This document shows positions 730-26,790 of a DNA stretch of 29,437 nucleotides, one piece after another. Numbering within the stretch: position 1 is the stretch's first letter; each line of letters begins with the position of its first letter. The notes beneath the pieces were generated by a model. That model saw only the letters and a program-made list of their open reading frames with translations, did not search any database and was not told the DNA's origin. Source of the stretch: Octopus sinensis. Lineage: Eukaryota. Both the position numbers and the translations under genes were made by a program. Location: the NCBI RefSeq assembly GCF_006345805.1, contig NW_021834102.1, positions 1 to 29,437 of the forward strand, written 5' to 3'.

Positions 730-848
730 CGTTCGCAATATCTGCGGCATCTTCTTTCTTCTTGGTCCTCTGTTGTAAATGTTCAGGATGAATATTGACA
801 GAATCACAGACAAAGCAACCAAGAACAACGTGAGCACGTGGTACGTCA
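730..848 (-). CDS. nAChR-like gene 1, exon 7 (M3 and start of MX: TYHVLTLFLVALSVILSIFILNIYNRGPRRKKMPQILRT)
   Basis: Acceptor tatttttttcAG and donor ACG|GTAAGA. 119 nt, phase 1 to 0. LNIxxRxP...MP motif. Confidence 0.94.
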
Positions 849-3698: not shown

Positions 3699-3785
3699 AA
3701 ATAACCGGGGTGGTCGAATAGCCTTTCGGTAGGCTGTTGTTGATTACGTTAATCTGCATGACACATACCACTATGAGTGCGATTC
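3699..3785 (-). CDS. nAChR-like gene 1, exon 6 (M2 and M2-M3 loop: IALIVVCVMQINVINNSLPKGYSTTPVI)
   Basis: Acceptor tttatttcctAG and donor T|GTAAGT. 87 nt, phase 1 to 1. The P-x6-P spacing of the M2-M3 loop is conserved, and this is the only candidate found that bridges exons 5 and 7 in frame. Confidence 0.9.
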
Positions 3786-3896
3786 CTAGGAAATAAACAG
3801 TGAGAGAGTAAGAGAAAAATAGTGGAATAATTGAAGAAGGACGTAGAAACGGAGAGAGAGTTTGTGTGTGTGTGTGTGTGTGATAGGGACAGAAAT

Positions 3897-4280
3897 GGAA
3901 GCACTCCGTCGGTTACGACGACGAGGGTTCCGGTGGATCCGAATCAACGGAACAGCCTGCTCGTGAAATTAACGTGTAAGTGGCTGAGCACTCCACAGAC
4001 ACGTGCATCCTTAACGTAGTTCTCAGGGATATTCAGCGTGACACAGAAAGTGACAAGGCCGGCCCTTTGAAATACAAGTACAACAGAAACAGGAAGTAAG
4101 AGTGAGAGAAAGTTGTGGCGAAAGAGTACAGCAGGGATCACCACCATCCCTGCCGGAGCCTCGTGGAGCTTTTAGGTGTTTTCGCTCAATAAACACTCAT
4201 AACGCCCGGTCTGGGAATCGAAACCGCGATCCTATGACCGCGAGTCCGCTGCCCTAACCACTGGGCCATTGCGCCTCCAC
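3897..4280 (-). mobile_element. SINE family A, full length, tRNA-derived head
   Basis: Minus strand starts GTGGAGGCGCAATGGCCCAGTGGTTAG (A box) ... GGTTTCGATTCCC (B box). Flanked by the direct repeat GGGACAGAAAT (3886-3896 and 4282-4292). Second copy at 24961-25341. Confidence 0.92.
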
Positions 4281-4559
4281 GGGGACAGAAATAGTGGATG
4301 GAAGAGAAACATAGAATGATTAAATCAGTGTATTTACAGAGGCAGATAGATAGGTGAATGCATGTCTTTACGAATAAGAAGTACTCTATACATAAGTTAG
4401 AGCTGGATTAAAGTACTGGGAGACGAATCCTCTTGGATGTTTAGTCTGAAGTTCACGTAATTGATTATTGAAATTATTCACTTCTGAGCAACGTGAAATT
4501 CAGAGAAAAGATTGAAGAGAATTTTCGATTTCAATTCTTCCTTGATTCCACCATTCGTT

Positions 4560-4900
4560 TCCTTGTTATCACAAACCGTTTTAATTAAATCTCCTTTCCA
4601 AAGTCATGGAAGCTTTCAGCTCACCCTTTTTCGATCGCTTGCATACAACTCTCTGCATCTACACGGGTTCACATGTATTCTGTGAACCTTGTCTGACCCA
4701 GAACGTGTTCTTTCAGTGTTCTGCGATCAATTCTTTCACTCCTCTCTGTTCTCCTATCATATCGTTTCGAATATGTTCTTTCCACGGCTCTTTGCGTCGT
4801 AACCAACAAATGTTTTTTCCTCTTCGTAGAAGTCCACGTCTCACTTGCGTATAAGAGCGCAGGCAGGACGGTGCTTCTGAAAGTCATAGTCACCAGTAAT
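4560..4900 (-). mobile_element. Degenerate RTE-type LINE reverse transcriptase 3' fragment
   Basis: Translation FRSTVLPALLYASETW...LxTTQRAVER matches the VLPxLLYxxETW motif of RTE-like RTs. Frameshifted. Confidence 0.75.
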
Positions 4901-4944
4901 GGAATCTTATTTAATTGTTTTTAATACGATATATATATATATAT

Positions 4945-6050
4945 AAATATATCGCCATCAGCTGTCCGTCGTAGGGTGATGTTGACTGTCCTGATCAGTT
5001 ATCGTTTCTGGCAGGCTCGCATGGGAACTACAAGGCCTGCTCTTCATTTTCTGCAGCAGTGACATCTGCTGAAGGTGAAGCTACTTGACGCAATGGACAA
5101 ATGACACCTTTTGTATTCTCTCTGTGGTCTATTTTCAATGACTGCAAATACGAGCTCAGGCGACCAGTGTCCTTCATTGCTTCACAGGGCCTTGTCCTTC
5201 CGGGTGCCTGGGGAGGTGCTGGAGTTTTTCATATGTCTCTTCAACGTTCTCTGTATTGCAAACTCCGTCCGTGACACATTTCGGAGTAGAAAACTGCCCT
5301 TGGGAGAATGCCGACTTCATTTCTCTTAATACGTCCCTCCCAATGCAGCTGCGATGAGGTCATTAGGGCCTCCGCACTAACTGTGCAAGCGCAGAACCGA
5401 ACCTCCTCATCTTGAATGCGATCCCTCTGTCTGGCATACATGATGGGGTACAAATGGTGAAAGTGGACACGAGTTAGAGTTTTGATATGCCTGCGGGAGA
5501 GAGCCATGCATTCCGTGGCGTAGGTGAGACGCCGGATCATTGCAGCACGCACACCCTTATCTTCGTGTTGCGGAAAATGTGATGTCAGCTGTGTAGACGC
5601 TTCTCAAGAGATCCAAATACCTTTGTGGCAGACTATTTGCTTCTCAAATTTCAAGTCAGATGAATTAGTACACGTCACAGCGCTGCCGAGACAGGTAAAG
5701 GCCTCGATGTACATTAGGGTTTCAGTGGATAGCGATCTCACTATTTATAAAGACATCTTGGTCAAGCACAATGTTTACGTTCCAAGTTGTAACAAACATT
5801 TTCATTTTCTTAGTAAAATCTTGCTGAGTGCGGTGATTCTTTACCCCCACCTTTCCTGGGGACGTTTCCTTCCAAGGCGGGTAGTTCTCCCTGAGAAGTG
5901 CTTCTCGGATGCTCATACCGCTGTTTCAGCCTGCTGGTGCGCAAGTTTCAACACTGACTACGCCCATCGAGACCTAGCTGCCTGTGTGCAAAGCTCTTGC
6001 TAGCAGCTTCCAGTTACTAACACGAACTACCGTTACATTCAACCCAAGGT
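4945..6050 (-). mobile_element. Internally deleted or degenerate RTE-type LINE
   Basis: The 5' part encodes the endonuclease start (FVTTWNV). It jumps directly to post-RT motifs (LTYATECMALSRRHIKTL...QLHWEGRIKR), followed by a degenerate C-terminal region. Many stops. Confidence 0.7.
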
Positions 6051-6361
6051 CATAGGGCTTCTCTTCTCTCTGCACGAAGAGTATGGTCCGTGAGTAAGGC
6101 AGTTGGCATCGTTATCCCACCACCAGACTGCCTCTCTGGGCCTCTTCTCAAGATACAAAGTCGTATAGATATATATAAATATACAGAACATTCTTGACAT
6201 AACAATATGTAACCTCTGAAGATAATGTGATAATACAGCGAAAGGGTTTGCGTGATAGTAGGCATATATTTAGATGTGTATGTATCTCAATGTATGTATA
6301 TAGGGTAGCAAAGAAAATATTTTAAATTAATATATATGTAAAAATGTTCATTGTTACATAC

Positions 6362-6542
6362 CTAGGGTTATACGTTCTTTAGATTCTGAAGGTAACAAGA
6401 ACATAAAAGGAATCAGTGCCGCGATTATTATAGCTGGGAAAATCAGTACTTGACAAGAGTACACGAAGTGCCGGCGCAAAGTGAATGTCATGATGTAAGT
6501 CATATAACTCTCCGGGCAGCAGGCGTACTGTCTATTCTCTAT
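6362..6542 (-). CDS. nAChR-like gene 1, exon 5 (loop C YACCPESY, pre-M1 LRR, M1, start of M2 ESKERITLG)
   Basis: Acceptor tttgacacAG and donor G|GTATGT. 181 nt, phase 0 to 1. Vicinal cysteines and the conserved M1 proline are present. Confidence 0.95.
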
Positions 6543-6604: not shown

Positions 6605-7000
6605 TTTTTTCTACTCTAGGCACAAGGCTCGAAATTTTGGGTGAGGGGACCAGTCGATTAGATCGACCCCAGTACGTAACTGGTACTTAATTTATCGACT
6701 CCGAAAGGATGAAAGGCAAAGTCGACCTCAGCGGAATTTGAACTCAATACGTAACAGCAGACGAAATACTTATTTCTTTACTACCCACAAGGGGCTAAAC
6801 ACAGAGAGGACAAACAACGACAGACAAACGGATTAAGTTGATTACATCGACTCCAGTGCGTAACTGGTACTTAATTTATTGACCCCGAAAGGATGAAAGG
6901 CAAAGTCGACCTCGACGGACTTTGAGCTCAGAACGTAACGGCAAACGAAATACCGCTTAGCATTTCGCCTGGCATGCTAACGATTCTGCCAGCTCGCCAC
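6605..7000 (-). mobile_element. SINE family B with two core units
   Basis: Head GGCGAGCTGGCAGAATCGTTAGCA on the minus strand. The core GAGGTCGACTTTGCCTTTCATCCTTTCGG is present twice. Confidence 0.88.
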
Positions 7001-8495: not shown

Positions 8496-8757
8496 TTCGG
8501 ACTCTGTGCTGACGATTTCCCACTTCTCGTTAGGTACGTAATCTTCCGAGATAACAGAACGAGGAGATGAGGATATATTGACTTCGAGACTGTTGTACGC
8601 CCAGGACCCAAATACCAGTTTACATGTCTGGGTGTCAAAAGGGAATTTGGACATAGCAAGCGCACACACAGCTGACTCGGTGATTCTTGGAACGTACAGC
8701 ACTTCCCCAGAGCTAAACACGACTGCGTCATGAGGCGGAGGGTTTGTCAATCCTTGA
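8496..8757 (-). CDS. nAChR-like gene 1, exon 4 (Cys-loop CALAMSKFPFDTQTC and loop B FGSWAY)
   Basis: Acceptor ttttttttcAG and donor GAA|GTAAGG. 262 nt, phase 2 to 0. C-x13-C signature with FPFD. Lies inside ORF 8073..8789. Confidence 0.96.
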
Positions 8758-10064: not shown

Positions 10065-10219
10065 TGATTGAAAAGAACTATATCAGGTGACCAAAAGTTT
10101 CGGACAGGAAGACGGATTATCTGTATTTTGTCATAATCACTGGCGTTCCAACGTAACGTGACATCTTTCCACTTTTGTGAGAAATAAGCGTCGATTGTAA
10201 ACTTCCTTTCTTGTTCGTT
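10065..10219 (-). CDS. nAChR-like gene 1, exon 3 (loop D and loop A: NEQERKFTIDAYFSQKWKDVTLRWNASDY...FWSPDIVLFN)
   Basis: Acceptor ccttcaaatAG and donor CA|GTAAGT. 155 nt, phase 0 to 2. WxDxxLxW and WxPDIVLxN motifs. Not in the ORF track in this frame. Confidence 0.93.
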
Positions 10220-13884: not shown

Positions 13885-14670
13885 ACCCAGTACGAAACTG
13901 GTACTTAATTTATCGAACCCCGGAAGGATGAAAGGCAAAGTCGACTTCGGCGGAATTTGAACTCAGAACGTAAAGACAGACGAAATACTGCAAGCATTTT
14001 TGCATTGTTTGATGAATTTTAAAGAGACGAGCTGGCAAAATCGTTAGCACGTTGTACAAAATGCTTAGAAGAGTATCTTTCAGTGCTCTACGTTTTGAGT
14101 TCGAATTCTGCCGAGGTTTTCCTTGATTCACGTCCCTTAGGTGCCGATAAAATAAGAACCACTCGAGCCCTGGAGTTGGTTTAAACGTCTAGAGCTAACA
14201 AAATTTCTGGCCTTGTGCCAAATTGAAACTAAAATCTTTTCTACTCTAGGTACAAGGCCCGAAATTTTTGGAGAGCGGGGGGGGAGCAGTCGATTAGATC
14301 GACCCCAGTACGCAACTGGTACTTAATTTGTCGAACAACGAAAGGATGAAAGGTAAAGTCGACCTCGGCGAAATTTGAACTCAGAACATAAAGACAGACG
14401 AAATACCTATTTCTTTACTACCCACAAGGGGCTAAACACAGAGAGGATAAACAAGGACAGACAAACGGATTAAGTCGATTATATCGACCCCAGTGCGTAA
14501 CTGGTACTTATTTAATCGACCCCGAAAGGATGAAAGGCAAAGTCGACCTCGATGAGATTCGAACTCAGAACGTAGTGGCAGACGAAATACTGCTAAGCCT
14601 TTCGCCCGGCGTGCTAACTCTCATACTTCATACTCATAGCGTGCAAAGGCGCGCCAGCACGCCGCCTTTA
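13885..14670. mobile_element. Cluster of SINE family B copies (minus ~13885-14000, plus ~14025-14215, minus ~14237-14670)
   Basis: Shared family B core and head sequences. Confidence 0.8.
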
Positions 14671-15545: not shown

Positions 15546-15621
15546 CCGCTTGTGGAAAAAATTGTAAGACGAACAGGAACACTGCACTGAATATAAATAT
15601 TCTTGGCCTGGAGATCGCCAT
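15546..15621 (-). CDS. nAChR-like subunit gene 1, coding exon 1 (signal peptide MAISRPRIFIFSAVFLFVLQFFPQA)
   Basis: ATG in aataATGG context. Basic N-region followed by a hydrophobic core. Donor G|GTAAGT at 15545; the 76-nt exon ends in phase 1, matching the next exon (G+TT = Val). Absent from the ORF track because it is short. Confidence 0.85.
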
Positions 15622-19050: not shown

Positions 19051-19084
19051 TATATATATACACACATATACATATACAAATAAA

Positions 19085-20510
19085 GCGGCGAGCTGGCAGA
19101 ATCGTTGGCACGCCGGGCGAAATGCTTAGCGGTATTTCGTCTACCGCTACGTTCTGAGTTCAAATTCCGCCGAGGTCGACTTTGCCTTTCATCCTTTCGG
19201 GGTCGATTAAATAAGTATCAGTACGCACAGGGGTCGATATAATCGACTTAATCCGTTTGGCTGTCCTGTTTGTCCTCTCGTGTTTTAGCCCTTGTGGGTA
19301 GTAAAGAAATAGGTATTTCGTCTACCGCTACGTTCTGAGTTCAAAATTCCGCCGAGGTCGACTTGCCTTTCATCCTTCGGGGTCGATTAAATAGTATCAG
19401 TTACGCACAGGGGTCGATATAATCGACTTAATCCGTTTGTCTGTCCTTGTTTGTACTCTCTGTTTAGCCCCTTGGGGTTAGTAAAGAAATAGGTATTTCG
19501 TTTACCGCTACGTTCTGAGTTCAAATTCCGCCGAGGTCGACTTTGCTTTCATCCTTTCGGGGTCGATTAAATAAGTATCAGTTACGCACAGTGGTCGATA
19601 TAATCGACTTAATCCGTGTCTGTCCTTGTTTGTCCTCTCTGGTTTAGCCCCTTGTGGGTAGTAAAGAATAGGTATTTCGTCTACCGCTACGTTCTGAGTT
19701 CAAATTCCGCCGAGGTCGACTTTGCCTTTCATCCTTTCGGGTCGATTAAATAAGTATCAGTTACGCACAGGGTCGATATAATCGACTTAATCCGTTTGTC
19801 TGTCCTTGTTTGTCCTCTCTGTGTTAGCCCATGGGTGTAGTAAAGAAATAGGTATTTCGTCTACCGCTACGTTCTGAGTTCAATTCCGCCGAGGTCGACT
19901 TTGCCTTTCATCCTTTCGGGGTCGATTAAATAAGTATCAGTTACGCACAGGGGTCGATATAATCGACTTAATCCGTTTGTCTGTCCTTGTTTGTCCTCTC
20001 TGTGTTTAGCCCCTTGTGGGTAGTAAAGAAATAGGTATTTCGTCTACCGCTACGTTCTGAGTTCAAATTCCGCCGAGGTCGACTTTGCCTTTCATCCTTT
20101 CGGGGTCGATTAAATAAGTATCAGTTACGCACAGGGGTCGATATAATCGACTTAATCCGTTTGTCTGTCCTTGTTTGTCCTCTCTGTGTTTAGCCCCTTG
20201 TGGGTAGTAAAGAAATAGGTATTTCGTCTACCGCTACGTTCTGAGTTCAAATTCCGCCGAGGTCGACTTTGCCTTTCATCCTTTCGGGGTCGATTAAATA
20301 AGTATCAGTTACGCACAGGGGTCGATATAATCGACTTAATCCGTTTGTCTGTCCTTGTTTGTCCTCTCTGTGTTTAGCCCCTTGTGGGTAGTAAAGAAAT
20401 AGGTATTTCGTCTGTCTTTACGTTCTGAGTTCAAGTTTCGCCGAGGTCGACTTTACTTTTCATCCTTTCGGTGTCGATAAATTAAATACCAGTTGCGTAA
20501 TGGGGTCAAC
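19085..20510 (+). repeat. SINE family B head followed by a tandem array of a ~184-bp internal unit (7 full units plus 1 partial)
   Basis: Unit starts (GGTATTTCGT) at 19131, 19312, 19492, 19671, 19851, 20034, 20218 and 20402. Confidence 0.95.
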
Positions 20511-22717: not shown

Positions 22718-23605
22718 TTTTCTATTCTAGACACAAGGCCCGAAATTTTTTTTTGGTGGAGGGGTGCAATCAATTAGATCGACTCTAGTACGCAACTGGT
22801 ACTTAATTTATCGACCCCTAAAGGCTCTATGTACAAAGCCCGAAGTTTTTGGGGAGGGACCAGTCGATTAAATCGACTCCAGTACTCAACTGGTACTTAA
22901 TTTATCGACCCCGAAAGGATGAAAGGCAAAGTCGACCTCGGCGAAATTTGAACTCAGAACGTAAAGACAAACGAAATACCATTAAACATTTCGCCCGGCG
23001 TGCTAACGTTTCTTATTTCTTTATTACCCACAAAGGACTAAACATAGAGGGGACAAACAAGGACAGACAAACGGATTAAGTCGATTACATAACCCCAGTG
23101 CGAAAGTAGAACTTAATTTATCGACACCGAAAGGATGAAAGTCAAAGTCGACCTCGGCGGAATTTGAACTCAAAACGTAACGGCAGAGGAAATACCTATT
23201 TCTTTACTACCCACAAGGGGCTAAACACAGAGGGGACAAACAAGGACAGACAAACGGATTAAGTCGATTATATCGACCCCAGTGCGTAACTGATACTTAA
23301 TTTATCGACCCCGAAAGGATGAAAGGCAAAGTCGACCTCGGAGGAATTTGAACTCAGAACGTAACGGCAGACGAAATACCTATTTCTTTGCTACCCACAA
23401 GGGGCTAAACACAGAGGGGACAAACAAGGACAGACAAACGGATTAAGTCGATTATATCGAACCAGTGCGTAACTGATACTTAATTTATCGACCCCGAAAG
23501 GATGAAAGGCAAAGTCGACCTCGGAGGAATTTGAACTCAGAACGTAACGCCGACGAAATACCACGAAGCATTTCGCCCGGCGTGCTAACGATTCAGCCAG
23601 CTCGC
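22718..23605 (-). mobile_element. Composite SINE family B with about four core units
   Basis: Repeated GAAAGGATGAAAGGCAAAGTCGACCTCGG. Head sequences near 23000 and 23600. Confidence 0.88.
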
Positions 23606-23939: not shown

Positions 23940-24275
23940 TTAGGCAAAAATACTTAATGTGGATATAAAAAAAGTAAGTAAAAAGAAAATAAACAAGATC
24001 CGATCAATGACCAACGCAACCTGCTGCCACTCAGAAGAGATTTCTTGGCGTGCATCAGTGATGGTGGCTCGCTGGGCCAAATATTGGACGGATTTCTTGA
24101 TTTCGTCCATGTCTCTTTCCGATTTCGGCACGGCTGGACTGCCTTGCACGCCAGTTTTGGCGTCTCTCTCGTTAAATCTGTCCTGTCCGCGCATGCTCAG
24201 TGTCCCTTCTTCGTCAACTGCATAGTATGTATCGCCACCAAGACCAACCAGATGACGTATTCCACGCAGAAATAT
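23940..24275 (-). CDS. nAChR-like gene 2 (tandem paralog), terminal exon only; upstream exons not found in this window
   Basis: Acceptor tcattttttttccAG at the same position and phase as gene 1 (IFLRGIRHLVGLGGDTY vs IFLKGLRKLVCLGDDTY). Shares DARQEIxSEWQQxAxVIDRILFI with gene 1. Confidence 0.92.
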   Translation of the reverse strand: MFLRGIRHLVGLGGDTYYAVDEEGTLSMRGQDRFNERDAKTGVQGSPAVPKSERDMDEIKKSVQYLAQRATITDARQEISSEWQQVALVIDRILFIFFLLTFFISTLSIFA

Positions 24276-26000: not shown

Positions 26001-26248
26001 CACTGAGCAATTTTATTTCAAGACTTCTTGCTAATAGAGAAAGAACCGGTTCTTCGTTCTGCCAGCTCGCCGCCATATTTCAAATATATCCACGTGACCA
26101 TACGATGGACCGAACTTATCAGATGCTGTTACACATCGCTGGTCACAATGCGCTTTTGGCATTGTTTTGACCTTCGAATTGGCTCGGAGAGAAGGTTAAC
26201 ATTCCCGGCCTCACGCCACCCCACCACCACCACCACCATCACCACCAC

Positions 26249-26665
26249 CTATTTCTTTATTACCCACAAGGGGCTAAACATAGAGGGGACAAACAAGGAC
26301 AGACATAGGTATTAAGTCGATTATATCGACCCCCAGCGCGTAAGTGGTACTTATTTAATCGACCCCGAAAGGATGAAAGGCAAAGTCGACCTCGGCGGAA
26401 TTTGAACTCACAATGTAACGGCAGACGAAATACCTATTTCTTTACTACCCACAAGGGGCTAAACACAGAGGGGACAAACAAGGACAGACAAACGGATTAA
26501 GTCGATTATATCGACCCCGGAGCGTAACTGGTACTTTATTTATCGACCCCGAATGGATGAAAGGCAAAGTCGACCTCGGCGGAATTTGAACTCAGAACGT
26601 GACGGCAGACGAAATACCGCTAAGCACTTCGCCCGGCGTGCTAACGACTCTGCCAGCTCGCCGCC
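26249..26665 (-). mobile_element. SINE family B with two units
   Basis: Two cores, with the head at about 26620-26665. Confidence 0.88.
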
Positions 26666-26790
26666 TTCACCACCACCACGTGATGGAAAAGGGGATTGGA
26701 GCAACGTAAAAGGAAATGAACCGAACCTACAACCTAGCGATCGTTAGTACAATAGCCTAACCACTGGGCTATGCACCTTCACATTTCAAA

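What the first reader, a model, noticed from the sequence alone, without database searches (positions are those of the whole stretch)
3699..6400. Highly non-canonical M2 pore: the 9' leucine gate is missing and 16' is polar
Seen: spliced M2 reads S-K(-2')-E(-1')-R(0')-I-T(2')-L-G-I-A(6')-L-I-V(9')-V-C-V-M(13')-Q-I-N(16')-V-I-N-N(20'). Known: alpha7-type M2 has G-2', E-1', S2', T6', L9', V13', L16' and E20', with L9'/L16' forming the hydrophobic gate. E-1' is kept and there is no Pro-Ala-Arg motif, which points to a cation-type filter. Inference: altered gating (leak or slow desensitisation), reduced Ca2+ permeability, an obligate heteromeric modulatory subunit, or a non-conducting receptor.
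Basis: partly seen in the sequence, partly recalled or inferred. Interest (0 to 1): 0.75.

Follow-up and report, generated by a model that had tools for sequence, protein, structure and literature searches.

The report
Octopus orphan receptor with rewired pore
This intact, spliced octopus gene encodes a nicotinic-type receptor subunit whose pore lining really is unusual and is identical in three octopus species, but the changes are of a kind that likely leave a normal closed gate and mainly lower calcium flow, rather than making a leaky or dead channel.

Summary
The M2 reading is correct: K-2', E-1', R0', T2', A6', V9', M13', N16', N20', with no indel. The 87-nt exon is spliced as proposed in transcript-like contigs of 4 of 4 runs.

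The gene is Octopus sinensis XP_029656644, an intact alpha-type subunit of a mollusc-wide orphan clade whose nearest solved relative is Alpo4. It is not a chemotactile receptor (22 of 22 keep L9') and likely not DopC1.

"Gate missing" is not supported. L9'V costs only -0.47 kcal/mol in muscle receptors, against -3.6 to -6.1 for A/S/T/D. V13'M stabilises closure. All 7 octopus AChRB-type M2 segments carry V9', and Drosophila alpha7-type subunits carry N16'. Pseudogene decay is refuted: M2 is 23/23 identical in O. bimaculoides, against 73% for the extracellular domain. Lower Ca2+ permeability is likely.

What is new: the V9'+N16' combination marks an Octopus subgroup in a tandem cluster. Its paralogs have near-identical M3-M4 exons (likely gene conversion) but distinct, species-conserved M2 and loop C segments. 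Ligand, selectivity and partners are untested.

The parts
15546..15621 (-). exon 1, signal peptide
   Evidence: tblastn of P0002; spliced frame equals P0002
10864..11015 (-). exon 2, N-terminal helix and beta1
10065..10219 (-). exon 3, loop D (Tyr at alpha7 W55) and loop A (Phe at alpha7 Y93)
8496..8757 (-). exon 4, loop E, Cys-loop C159-C173 with FPFD, loop B Trp180 kept
6362..6542 (-). exon 5, loop C (Tyr-x-Cys-Cys, Tyr228), M1, M1-M2 linker K-2' E-1' R0' and M2 to 4'
   Evidence: splice joints
3699..3785 (-). exon 6 (87 nt), M2 from 4' to 20' with A6' V9' M13' N16' V17' N20', P23' and the M2-M3 loop
   Evidence: both junctions in run contigs
730..848 (-). exon 7, M3 and MX start; 113/117 nt identical to the paralog on C3706
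28..378 (-). exon 8, short intracellular loop, MA, M4 and stop; 305/312 nt identical to the paralog on C3706
23940..24275 (-). last exon of the upstream tandem paralog; its translation matches the C-terminus of O. vulgaris P0127 (CAI9738543)

Best explanation
The gene is an intact, spliced alpha-type Cys-loop subunit of an orphan mollusc-wide (Alpo4-like) clade, and it likely forms a ligand-gated channel that is closed at rest, predicted to pass mainly monovalent cations with low Ca2+ permeability. Shown: gene structure, splicing, fold, clade, and conservation of the pore. Inferred: the gate would be a shortened hydrophobic stack of V9' and M13', extended inward by A6', with a wetted N16'/N20' outer mouth. 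K-2' beside E-1' and the neutral 20' ring would cut conductance and divalent flux. The agonist site keeps loop B Trp, loop C Tyr/Cys-Cys/Tyr, but has Phe for Y93 and Tyr for W55 and lacks the K145/D197 pair, so acetylcholine is likely a weak agonist or not the agonist. Tandem paralogs would supply subunits with near-identical M3-M4 but different loop C and M2 segments.
For: Open frame equal to P0002 and canonical introns. Junctions in 4 of 4 runs. AlphaFold model with complete pLGIC fold and M2 helix 270-293, block pLDDT 89-91 over residues 271-290; Foldseek hits are nAChRs. Alpo4 is the best PDB hit: E 5.8e-65 against 1.1e-57 for alpha7; clade profile 374.6 bits against 329.9 for the next. 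Tree: mollusc clade 100/99, cephalopod subclade 100/100, Octopus V9' subgroup 100/100. Identity to the O. bimaculoides ortholog: M1 26/26, M2 23/23, extracellular domain 152/209 (Fisher p=0.0016). Gate energetics from Table S2 of PMC10757554. V9' in 7 of 7 AChRB-type segments of this genome. N16' in Drosophila P0201 and the Argonauta paralog P0131. The paralog on C3706 keeps 2', 6', 9', 16' and 17', with synonymous changes at 6', 9' and 17', while 13 of 28 residues of the exon differ.
Against: No current has been recorded from this gene in anything I could read, and Alpo4 stayed silent even as M16'L/L9'T and as alpha7 chimeras (PMC10338036 section 10). Mean hydropathy at 9'/13'/16' ranks 5th lowest of 228 aligned subunits, so the combination is extreme even though each residue has precedent. 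The energetics come from single changes in a vertebrate heteromer. No 16'Asn value and no five-fold combination was measured. Net ring charge at -2', -1' and 20' is 0 against -2 in alpha7-type rows, so cation selectivity is not assured. Transmembrane segments are usually more conserved than extracellular domains, so 23/23 shows constraint, not special selection. Alpo4 was not among the Foldseek rows shown and could not be put in the tree. I could not match the AChRB1 gene id to a locus.
Confidence: 0.58

Rival explanations
1. Obligate heteromeric subunit: it conducts only when co-assembled with cluster paralogs (for example the L9' member orthologous to Argonauta P0004), tuning gating and Ca2+ flux of the mixed pentamer.
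For: Tandem cluster of at least 4 genes (O. vulgaris CAI9738543-48). Near-identical M3-M4 between paralogs would favour co-assembly (inference). Several octopus subunits were silent as homomers: DopC2, AChRB2, AChRB3. Alpo4 gives no current.
Against: It keeps both principal-face and complementary-face aromatic residues. Alpo4 assembles as a homopentamer. No co-expression data are available.
Confidence: 0.24
2. Constitutively open or leaky cation channel, because V9', M13' and N16' in five copies together wet the pore.
For: 5th lowest gate hydropathy of 228. Gating energy tracks hydrophobicity at 9', 13' and 16' (PMC10757554 passages). K145/D197 coupling residues are absent.
Against: L9'V -0.47, V13'M +1.04, and 16' changes within 0.7 kcal/mol, against a barrier of +8.3. 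V9' is in all AChRB-type segments found. The agonist-site aromatics and vicinal cysteines are conserved, which suggests ligand control.
Confidence: 0.08
3. Ligand-gated but poorly selective or anion-permeable channel, because K-2' and R0' cancel E-1' and the 20' ring is neutral.
For: Net charge 0 at -2'/-1'/20'. K or R at -2' across most of the clade. No member has a measured selectivity in what I read.
Against: E-1' is kept in all near clade members examined, and the PAK motif of molluscan anion channels is absent. The Alpo4 structure places E-1' and T2' rings as in cation channels.
Confidence: 0.07
4. Non-conducting receptor or decaying pseudogene.
For: Fast evolution of the Octopus subgroup (branch 0.45). 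Loss of P23' in paralogs P0104/P0130 and P0100b. Ala for a conserved Asp/Asn in the Cys-loop of this copy.
Against: Open frame, all introns canonical, spliced contigs. M1+M2 49/49 identical in O. bimaculoides. Pore-facing positions kept between paralogs despite synonymous change.
Confidence: 0.03

Closest known systems
Alpo4 of Alvinella pompejana (PDB 8bx5; PMC10338036, passages and section 10 read)
   Same: Best PDB match over the whole length, including the short intracellular loop. Same K-2' E-1' R0' I1' T2' motif and non-polar 6'. Orphan ligand.
   Different: Alpo4 has L9', L13', M16', D20' (a tighter hydrophobic gate) and lacks the loop C cysteines. This gene has V9', M13', N16', N20' and keeps Tyr-x-Cys-Cys.
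Vertebrate alpha7 nAChR (PDB chains)
   Same: Fold, Cys-loop, loop B Trp, loop C Tyr/Cys-Cys/Tyr, E-1', P23'.
   Different: About 27% identity, separate clade. Y93F, W55Y, K145V, D197T; G-2'K, T6'A, L9'V, V13'M, L16'N, E20'N.
Octopus chemotactile receptors CRT1/CRB1 (PDB 8eis, 9e6b, 8eiz; primary papers not held)
   Same: Octopus tandem expansion of nAChR-like genes with altered binding site.
   Different: CRs are single-ORF genes on C16:13.3-13.85 Mb, a separate clade, with L9' in 22 of 22 ORFs. This gene has 8 exons and keeps Tyr-x-Cys-Cys.
Molluscan AChRB ACh-gated anion channels (bioRxiv 10.1101/2025.04.02.646353, sections 6 and 8, part 1 of section 38 and passages read)
   Same: V9' in the same animal (7 of 7 segments).
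   Different: PAK/PSK filter with N6' and L16'; separate clade; anion-selective.
DopC1 dopamine-gated cation channel (same preprint)
   Same: Example of an octopus nicotinic-like subunit with a non-ACh ligand.
   Different: DopC1 is described as closest to alpha9/alpha10. The query's clade excludes the alpha9-like row in my tree. DopC1 itself was not in the tree.

Membership tests
Cys-loop pentameric ligand-gated ion channels | Cys-x13-Cys loop, beta-sandwich ECD, four TM helices | tested here: met
   PF02931 156 bits and PF02932 102 bits, both over cut-off; model and Foldseek
alpha-type nAChR subunit (sequence definition) | vicinal cysteines in loop C (Tyr-x-Cys-Cys) | tested here: met
   Y221, C223, C224, Y228
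alpha-type nAChR subunit (sequence definition) | complete aromatic box Y93, W149, Y188, Y195, W55 | tested here: not met
   F at Y93 and Y at W55; the other three kept
alpha-type nAChR subunit (function) | gated by acetylcholine | not testable with these tools
   needs electrophysiology
alpha7 subfamily | groups with alpha7-like subunits; G-2' E-1' K0', T6', L9', L16', E20' | tested here: not met
Alpo4-like lophotrochozoan clade (family 43A of PMC10338036) | closest relative among solved structures and shared K-2' E-1' R0' motif and short ICD | tested here: met
Alpo4-like lophotrochozoan clade (family 43A of PMC10338036) | monophyly with Alpo4 in a tree | not tested
   Alpo4 was not held as a stored sequence; the paper's figure supplement could not be seen
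Cephalopod chemotactile receptors (CR) | member of the CR clade | tested here: not met
   8 CR ORFs form their own clade, SH-aLRT 100, quick tree; CRT1 ortholog identified as L062
Cephalopod chemotactile receptors (CR) | intronless coding region | tested here: not met
   8 exons; intronless CRs per PMC13174522 passages and open frames on C16
AChRB anion channels | PAK motif at -2' to 0' | tested here: not met
   KER; definition
DopC dopamine-gated cation channels | sister to alpha9/alpha10, dopamine-gated | tested here: inconclusive
   query clade excludes the alpha9-like row P0186; no DopC1 sequence was held; gating not testable

The most novel reading that the evidence does not exclude
Octopus has a second, intron-containing receptor expansion, independent of the chemotactile receptors. 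In it, gene conversion keeps M1 and M3-M4 interchangeable while loop C and the pore exon are kept distinct per paralog. The result is a kit of co-assembling subunits for non-ACh ligands with a rewired, low-calcium and possibly weakly selective or partly open pore. Deorphanising it would give the silent Alpo4 clade its first function.
Probability: 0.17. Interest if true: 0.75.

Novelty: new variant of a known kind. Interest (0 to 1): 0.42.

Why it matters
The Alpo4-like clade has a solved structure but no recorded ligand or current in the papers read. These octopus paralogs are natural pore variants of it (L9'/Y16', L9'/N16', V9'/N16'), so they are good candidates for first recordings. They also test directly how far a pentameric channel's hydrophobic gate can be thinned and stay shut. 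The mosaic of homogenised and divergent exons points at loop C and M2 as the parts that distinguish the paralogs.

Tried and rejected
Alternative or mutually exclusive M2 exon: none in either flanking intron (acceptor scan; tblastn).

CR identity: my first guess, rejected by tree, intron structure and M2.

DopC1 and AChRB identity: AChRB rejected by the filter motif; DopC1 unlikely from the tree, but no DopC1 sequence was held.

Positive selection on the M2 exon between paralogs: dN/dS about 0.6 (0.315/0.523, about 20 synonymous sites), so not shown. Ortholog dN/dS could not be computed because no ortholog DNA was held.

Expression by tissue: no RNA holder is on record and names are coded. In one search the junction was seen in 2 of 4 runs of related organisms with only 24 letters on the short side, and the M2 exon was uncovered in the other 2.

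Missing cluster members: the pore exons of two other members were not found in this fragmented assembly.

Other blanks: the ESM Atlas gave only generic nAChR clusters. Pfam found nothing in six intronic or intergenic open frames. No complex prediction was run, because a pass would reflect likeness to solved pentamers.

Literature: the two Nature 2023 CR papers were not held. Supplements of the bioRxiv DopC1 preprint (list of 41 tested genes) are closed and that of PMC13174522 was unreadable. Either may already classify this gene or report a test of it. An accession search of main texts found nothing, and an ApAChR search found nothing.

Full report
Observation. The window is the whole contig G000:C10573. 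Eight minus-strand exons with GT..AG at all seven introns give a 460-residue open frame identical to P0002, which NCBI names neuronal acetylcholine receptor alpha-5 of Octopus sinensis, XP_029656644. M2 reads K-2' E-1' R0' I T2' L G I A6' L I V9' V C V M13' Q I N16' V I N N20' S L P23' and aligns to alpha7 without a gap. The intron 6361-3786 is removed in contigs of 4 of 4 runs from 4 studies. Two runs also join 3699 to the 848 exon and one joins 6542 to the 8496 exon. The runs are only guessed to be RNA. In four runs of related organisms the junction appears in 2 (short side 24 letters); the other 2 do not cover the M2 exon. No letter difference is listed in the M2 exon in either call. No alternative M2 exon was found.

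Identity. The best PDB match is Alpo4, over the whole length (E 5.8e-65 against 1.1e-57 for alpha7; profile 374.6 against 329.9 bits). Foldseek of the model (mean pLDDT 76) listed vertebrate and Torpedo nAChRs and did not show Alpo4 among its rows. A 26-row tree gives a mollusc clade of 19 rows (100/99: Aplysia, Elysia, Patella, bivalves, cephalopods) and a cephalopod subclade of 10 rows (100/100). Inside it is an Octopus subgroup of 5 rows (100/100) (Alpo4 and DopC1 not included; one row only 41% filled). In a quick 47-row tree the 8 CR ORFs included (of 22 extracted) form a separate clade. L062 is the CRT1 ortholog, and 22 of 22 CR ORFs keep L9'. The gene has KER, not the PAK of AChRB. It lies in a tandem cluster. 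The last exon of a paralog is at 24275-23940, another paralog is on C3706, and O. vulgaris has CAI9738543-46 and -48 on a 47-Mb contig. Argonauta has two adjacent members, one L9'/Y16' and one L9'/N16'.

How unusual is the pore. I aligned 240 sequences and kept 228, dropping rows with more than two gaps in M2 and one truncated half-model; the set is redundant and includes 6 rows of the subgroup itself. L9' is in 187, V9' in 24, N16' in 14, and a polar or charged 16' in 70. Non-leucine 9' together with N16' occurs in 8, of which 6 are the Octopus subgroup. Mean hydropathy at 9'/13'/16' ranks 5th lowest. So each residue has precedent and the combination is rare. K or R at -2', R0' and a hydrophobic 6' are shared by most of the clade, including K-2' in Alpo4. 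V9'+N16' together with the loss of the 20' acid is the derived state of the Octopus subgroup.

Is the gate gone. Table S2 of PMC10757554 (read whole; Greek subunit letters were lost in the text, so subunits are inferred from numbering) gives L251V at 9' -0.47 kcal/mol, against -3.6 to -6.1 for A, S, T and D. It gives V265M at 13' +1.04, and 16' A, S and D +0.33, +0.44 and -0.71. The wild-type unliganded barrier is +8.3. Seven of 7 AChRB-type M2 segments found in this genome have V9'. AChRB1 is a working ACh-gated homomer (preprint section 8), though I could not match its gene id to a locus. A Drosophila alpha7-type subunit has N16'; that such insect subunits form ordinary gated channels is recalled, not read. 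Ascaris ACR-16 lacks the alpha7 residues at 13', 16' and 17' and is a functional homomer with slower desensitisation and PCa/PNa 0.4. Alpha7 L254R/T lowers Ca2+ permeability (PMC4959957 passages). A retained gate, low Ca2+ flux and perhaps slower desensitisation are therefore the likeliest reading. Against it: the five-fold combination and Asn at 16' were never measured, the ring charge at -2'/-1'/20' is zero, and Alpo4 gave no current under any condition.

Constraint and mosaic evolution. Against the O. bimaculoides ortholog P0106, M1 is 26/26 and M2 23/23 identical while the extracellular domain is 152/209; against O. vulgaris P0101, M2 is 23/23. Against the C3706 paralog the nucleotide identities are: loop C-M1 exon 149/180, with 27 of 31 differences in the loop C half; M2 exon 60/84 (dS 0.52, dN 0.32); M3 exon 113/117; last exon 305/312 (dS under 0.05). 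The homologous block 53-987, introns included, is 92.5% identical against 77% around the M2 exon. In an 80-residue stretch of the last exon the two O. bimaculoides models differ at 0 positions, and at 7-9 from the other species. The M2 exon groups the other way: orthologs differ at 0-1 of 29 positions, paralogs at 10-13. This is the pattern of gene conversion that spares loop C and M2 (inference). Caveats: the synonymous counts are small, and the O. bimaculoides models are fused or incomplete and could share one exon by annotation. Within M2 the paralogs keep 2', 6', 9', 16' and 17', three of them through synonymous changes. dN/dS of about 0.6 gives no sign of positive selection.

Ligand site. 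Kept: W180 (alpha7 W149), Y221, C223-C224, Y228. Changed: F126 for Y93, Y88 for W55, V176 for K145, T230 for D197 (alpha7 numbering and the role of the K145/D197 pair are recalled). By sequence it is an alpha-type subunit. Acetylcholine is likely weak or not the agonist; this is untested.

Novelty. Ten literature searches found no description of this gene, cluster or pore. Closed or unreadable supplements (the DopC1 preprint's list of 41 tested genes; MolluscaGenes clades) and the two CR papers not held may cover it. Papers seen: PMC10338036 (passages, section 10); the DopC1 preprint (outline, sections 6 and 8, part 1 of 38, passages); the Daphnia DopC1 preprint (part 1 of 6); PMC13174522, PMC6896357, PMC4959957 and PMC12259195 (passages); PMC10757554 (passages, supplement search, Table S2). 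An earlier scan note on an AChRB gene with two M2 exons agrees with two adjacent segments seen on C6 and concerns another gene.

Verdict. The feature is real, the gene is intact and constrained, and it is a new pore variant within a known orphan clade. The dramatic reading (gate missing, leak, non-conducting) is unlikely. The cluster's exon-wise mosaic and its value for deorphanising the Alpo4-like clade justify moderate interest, 0.42.

Noticed in passing
window 8657-8655 (-), residue 162 of P0002: Ala in the Cys-loop where the other 11 of 12 aligned clade members, including the O. vulgaris and O. bimaculoides orthologs, have Asp or Asn; allele or assembly error not checked.
   Followed up: no
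window 23940-24275 (-); G000:C9606; proteins P0127/P0010: The upstream paralog's O. vulgaris model lacks five M2 residues, probably a mis-called acceptor. Counting back from P23' gives N16', E17' and possibly Ala at 9'. Its M2 exon was not found in this assembly.
   Followed up: partly
G000:C9606:7403-7489; proteins P0099, P0127: Two different cluster members have almost the same signal-peptide exon: conversion, a shared first exon, or an annotation error.
   Followed up: no
G000:C3706:6213-6296 (L033); protein P0100 second half: Paralogs have lost the highly conserved M2-M3 loop proline P23' (Glu or Ala instead), which may alter coupling of binding to gating.
   Followed up: partly
G000:C16:13.3-13.85 Mb (L042, L049-L052, L055-L057, L060, L062, L073-L084): Chemotactile receptor cluster with CRT1 at L062. 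Two members lack E-1': L050 has Lys and L080 has Gln with Lys at -2'.
   Followed up: no
   Followed up: partly
proteins P0001/P0100, P0003/P0106: O. bimaculoides gene models for this cluster look faulty: one fuses two genes, another replaces the end of M3 with intron-like sequence.
   Followed up: partly
window 19081-20510, also about 6650-7000, 14230-14620, 22825-23605, 26247-26667: Arrays of a roughly 185-bp repeat that also occurs on C3706. A further abundant repeat at 3866-4355 dominates run depth.
   Followed up: no
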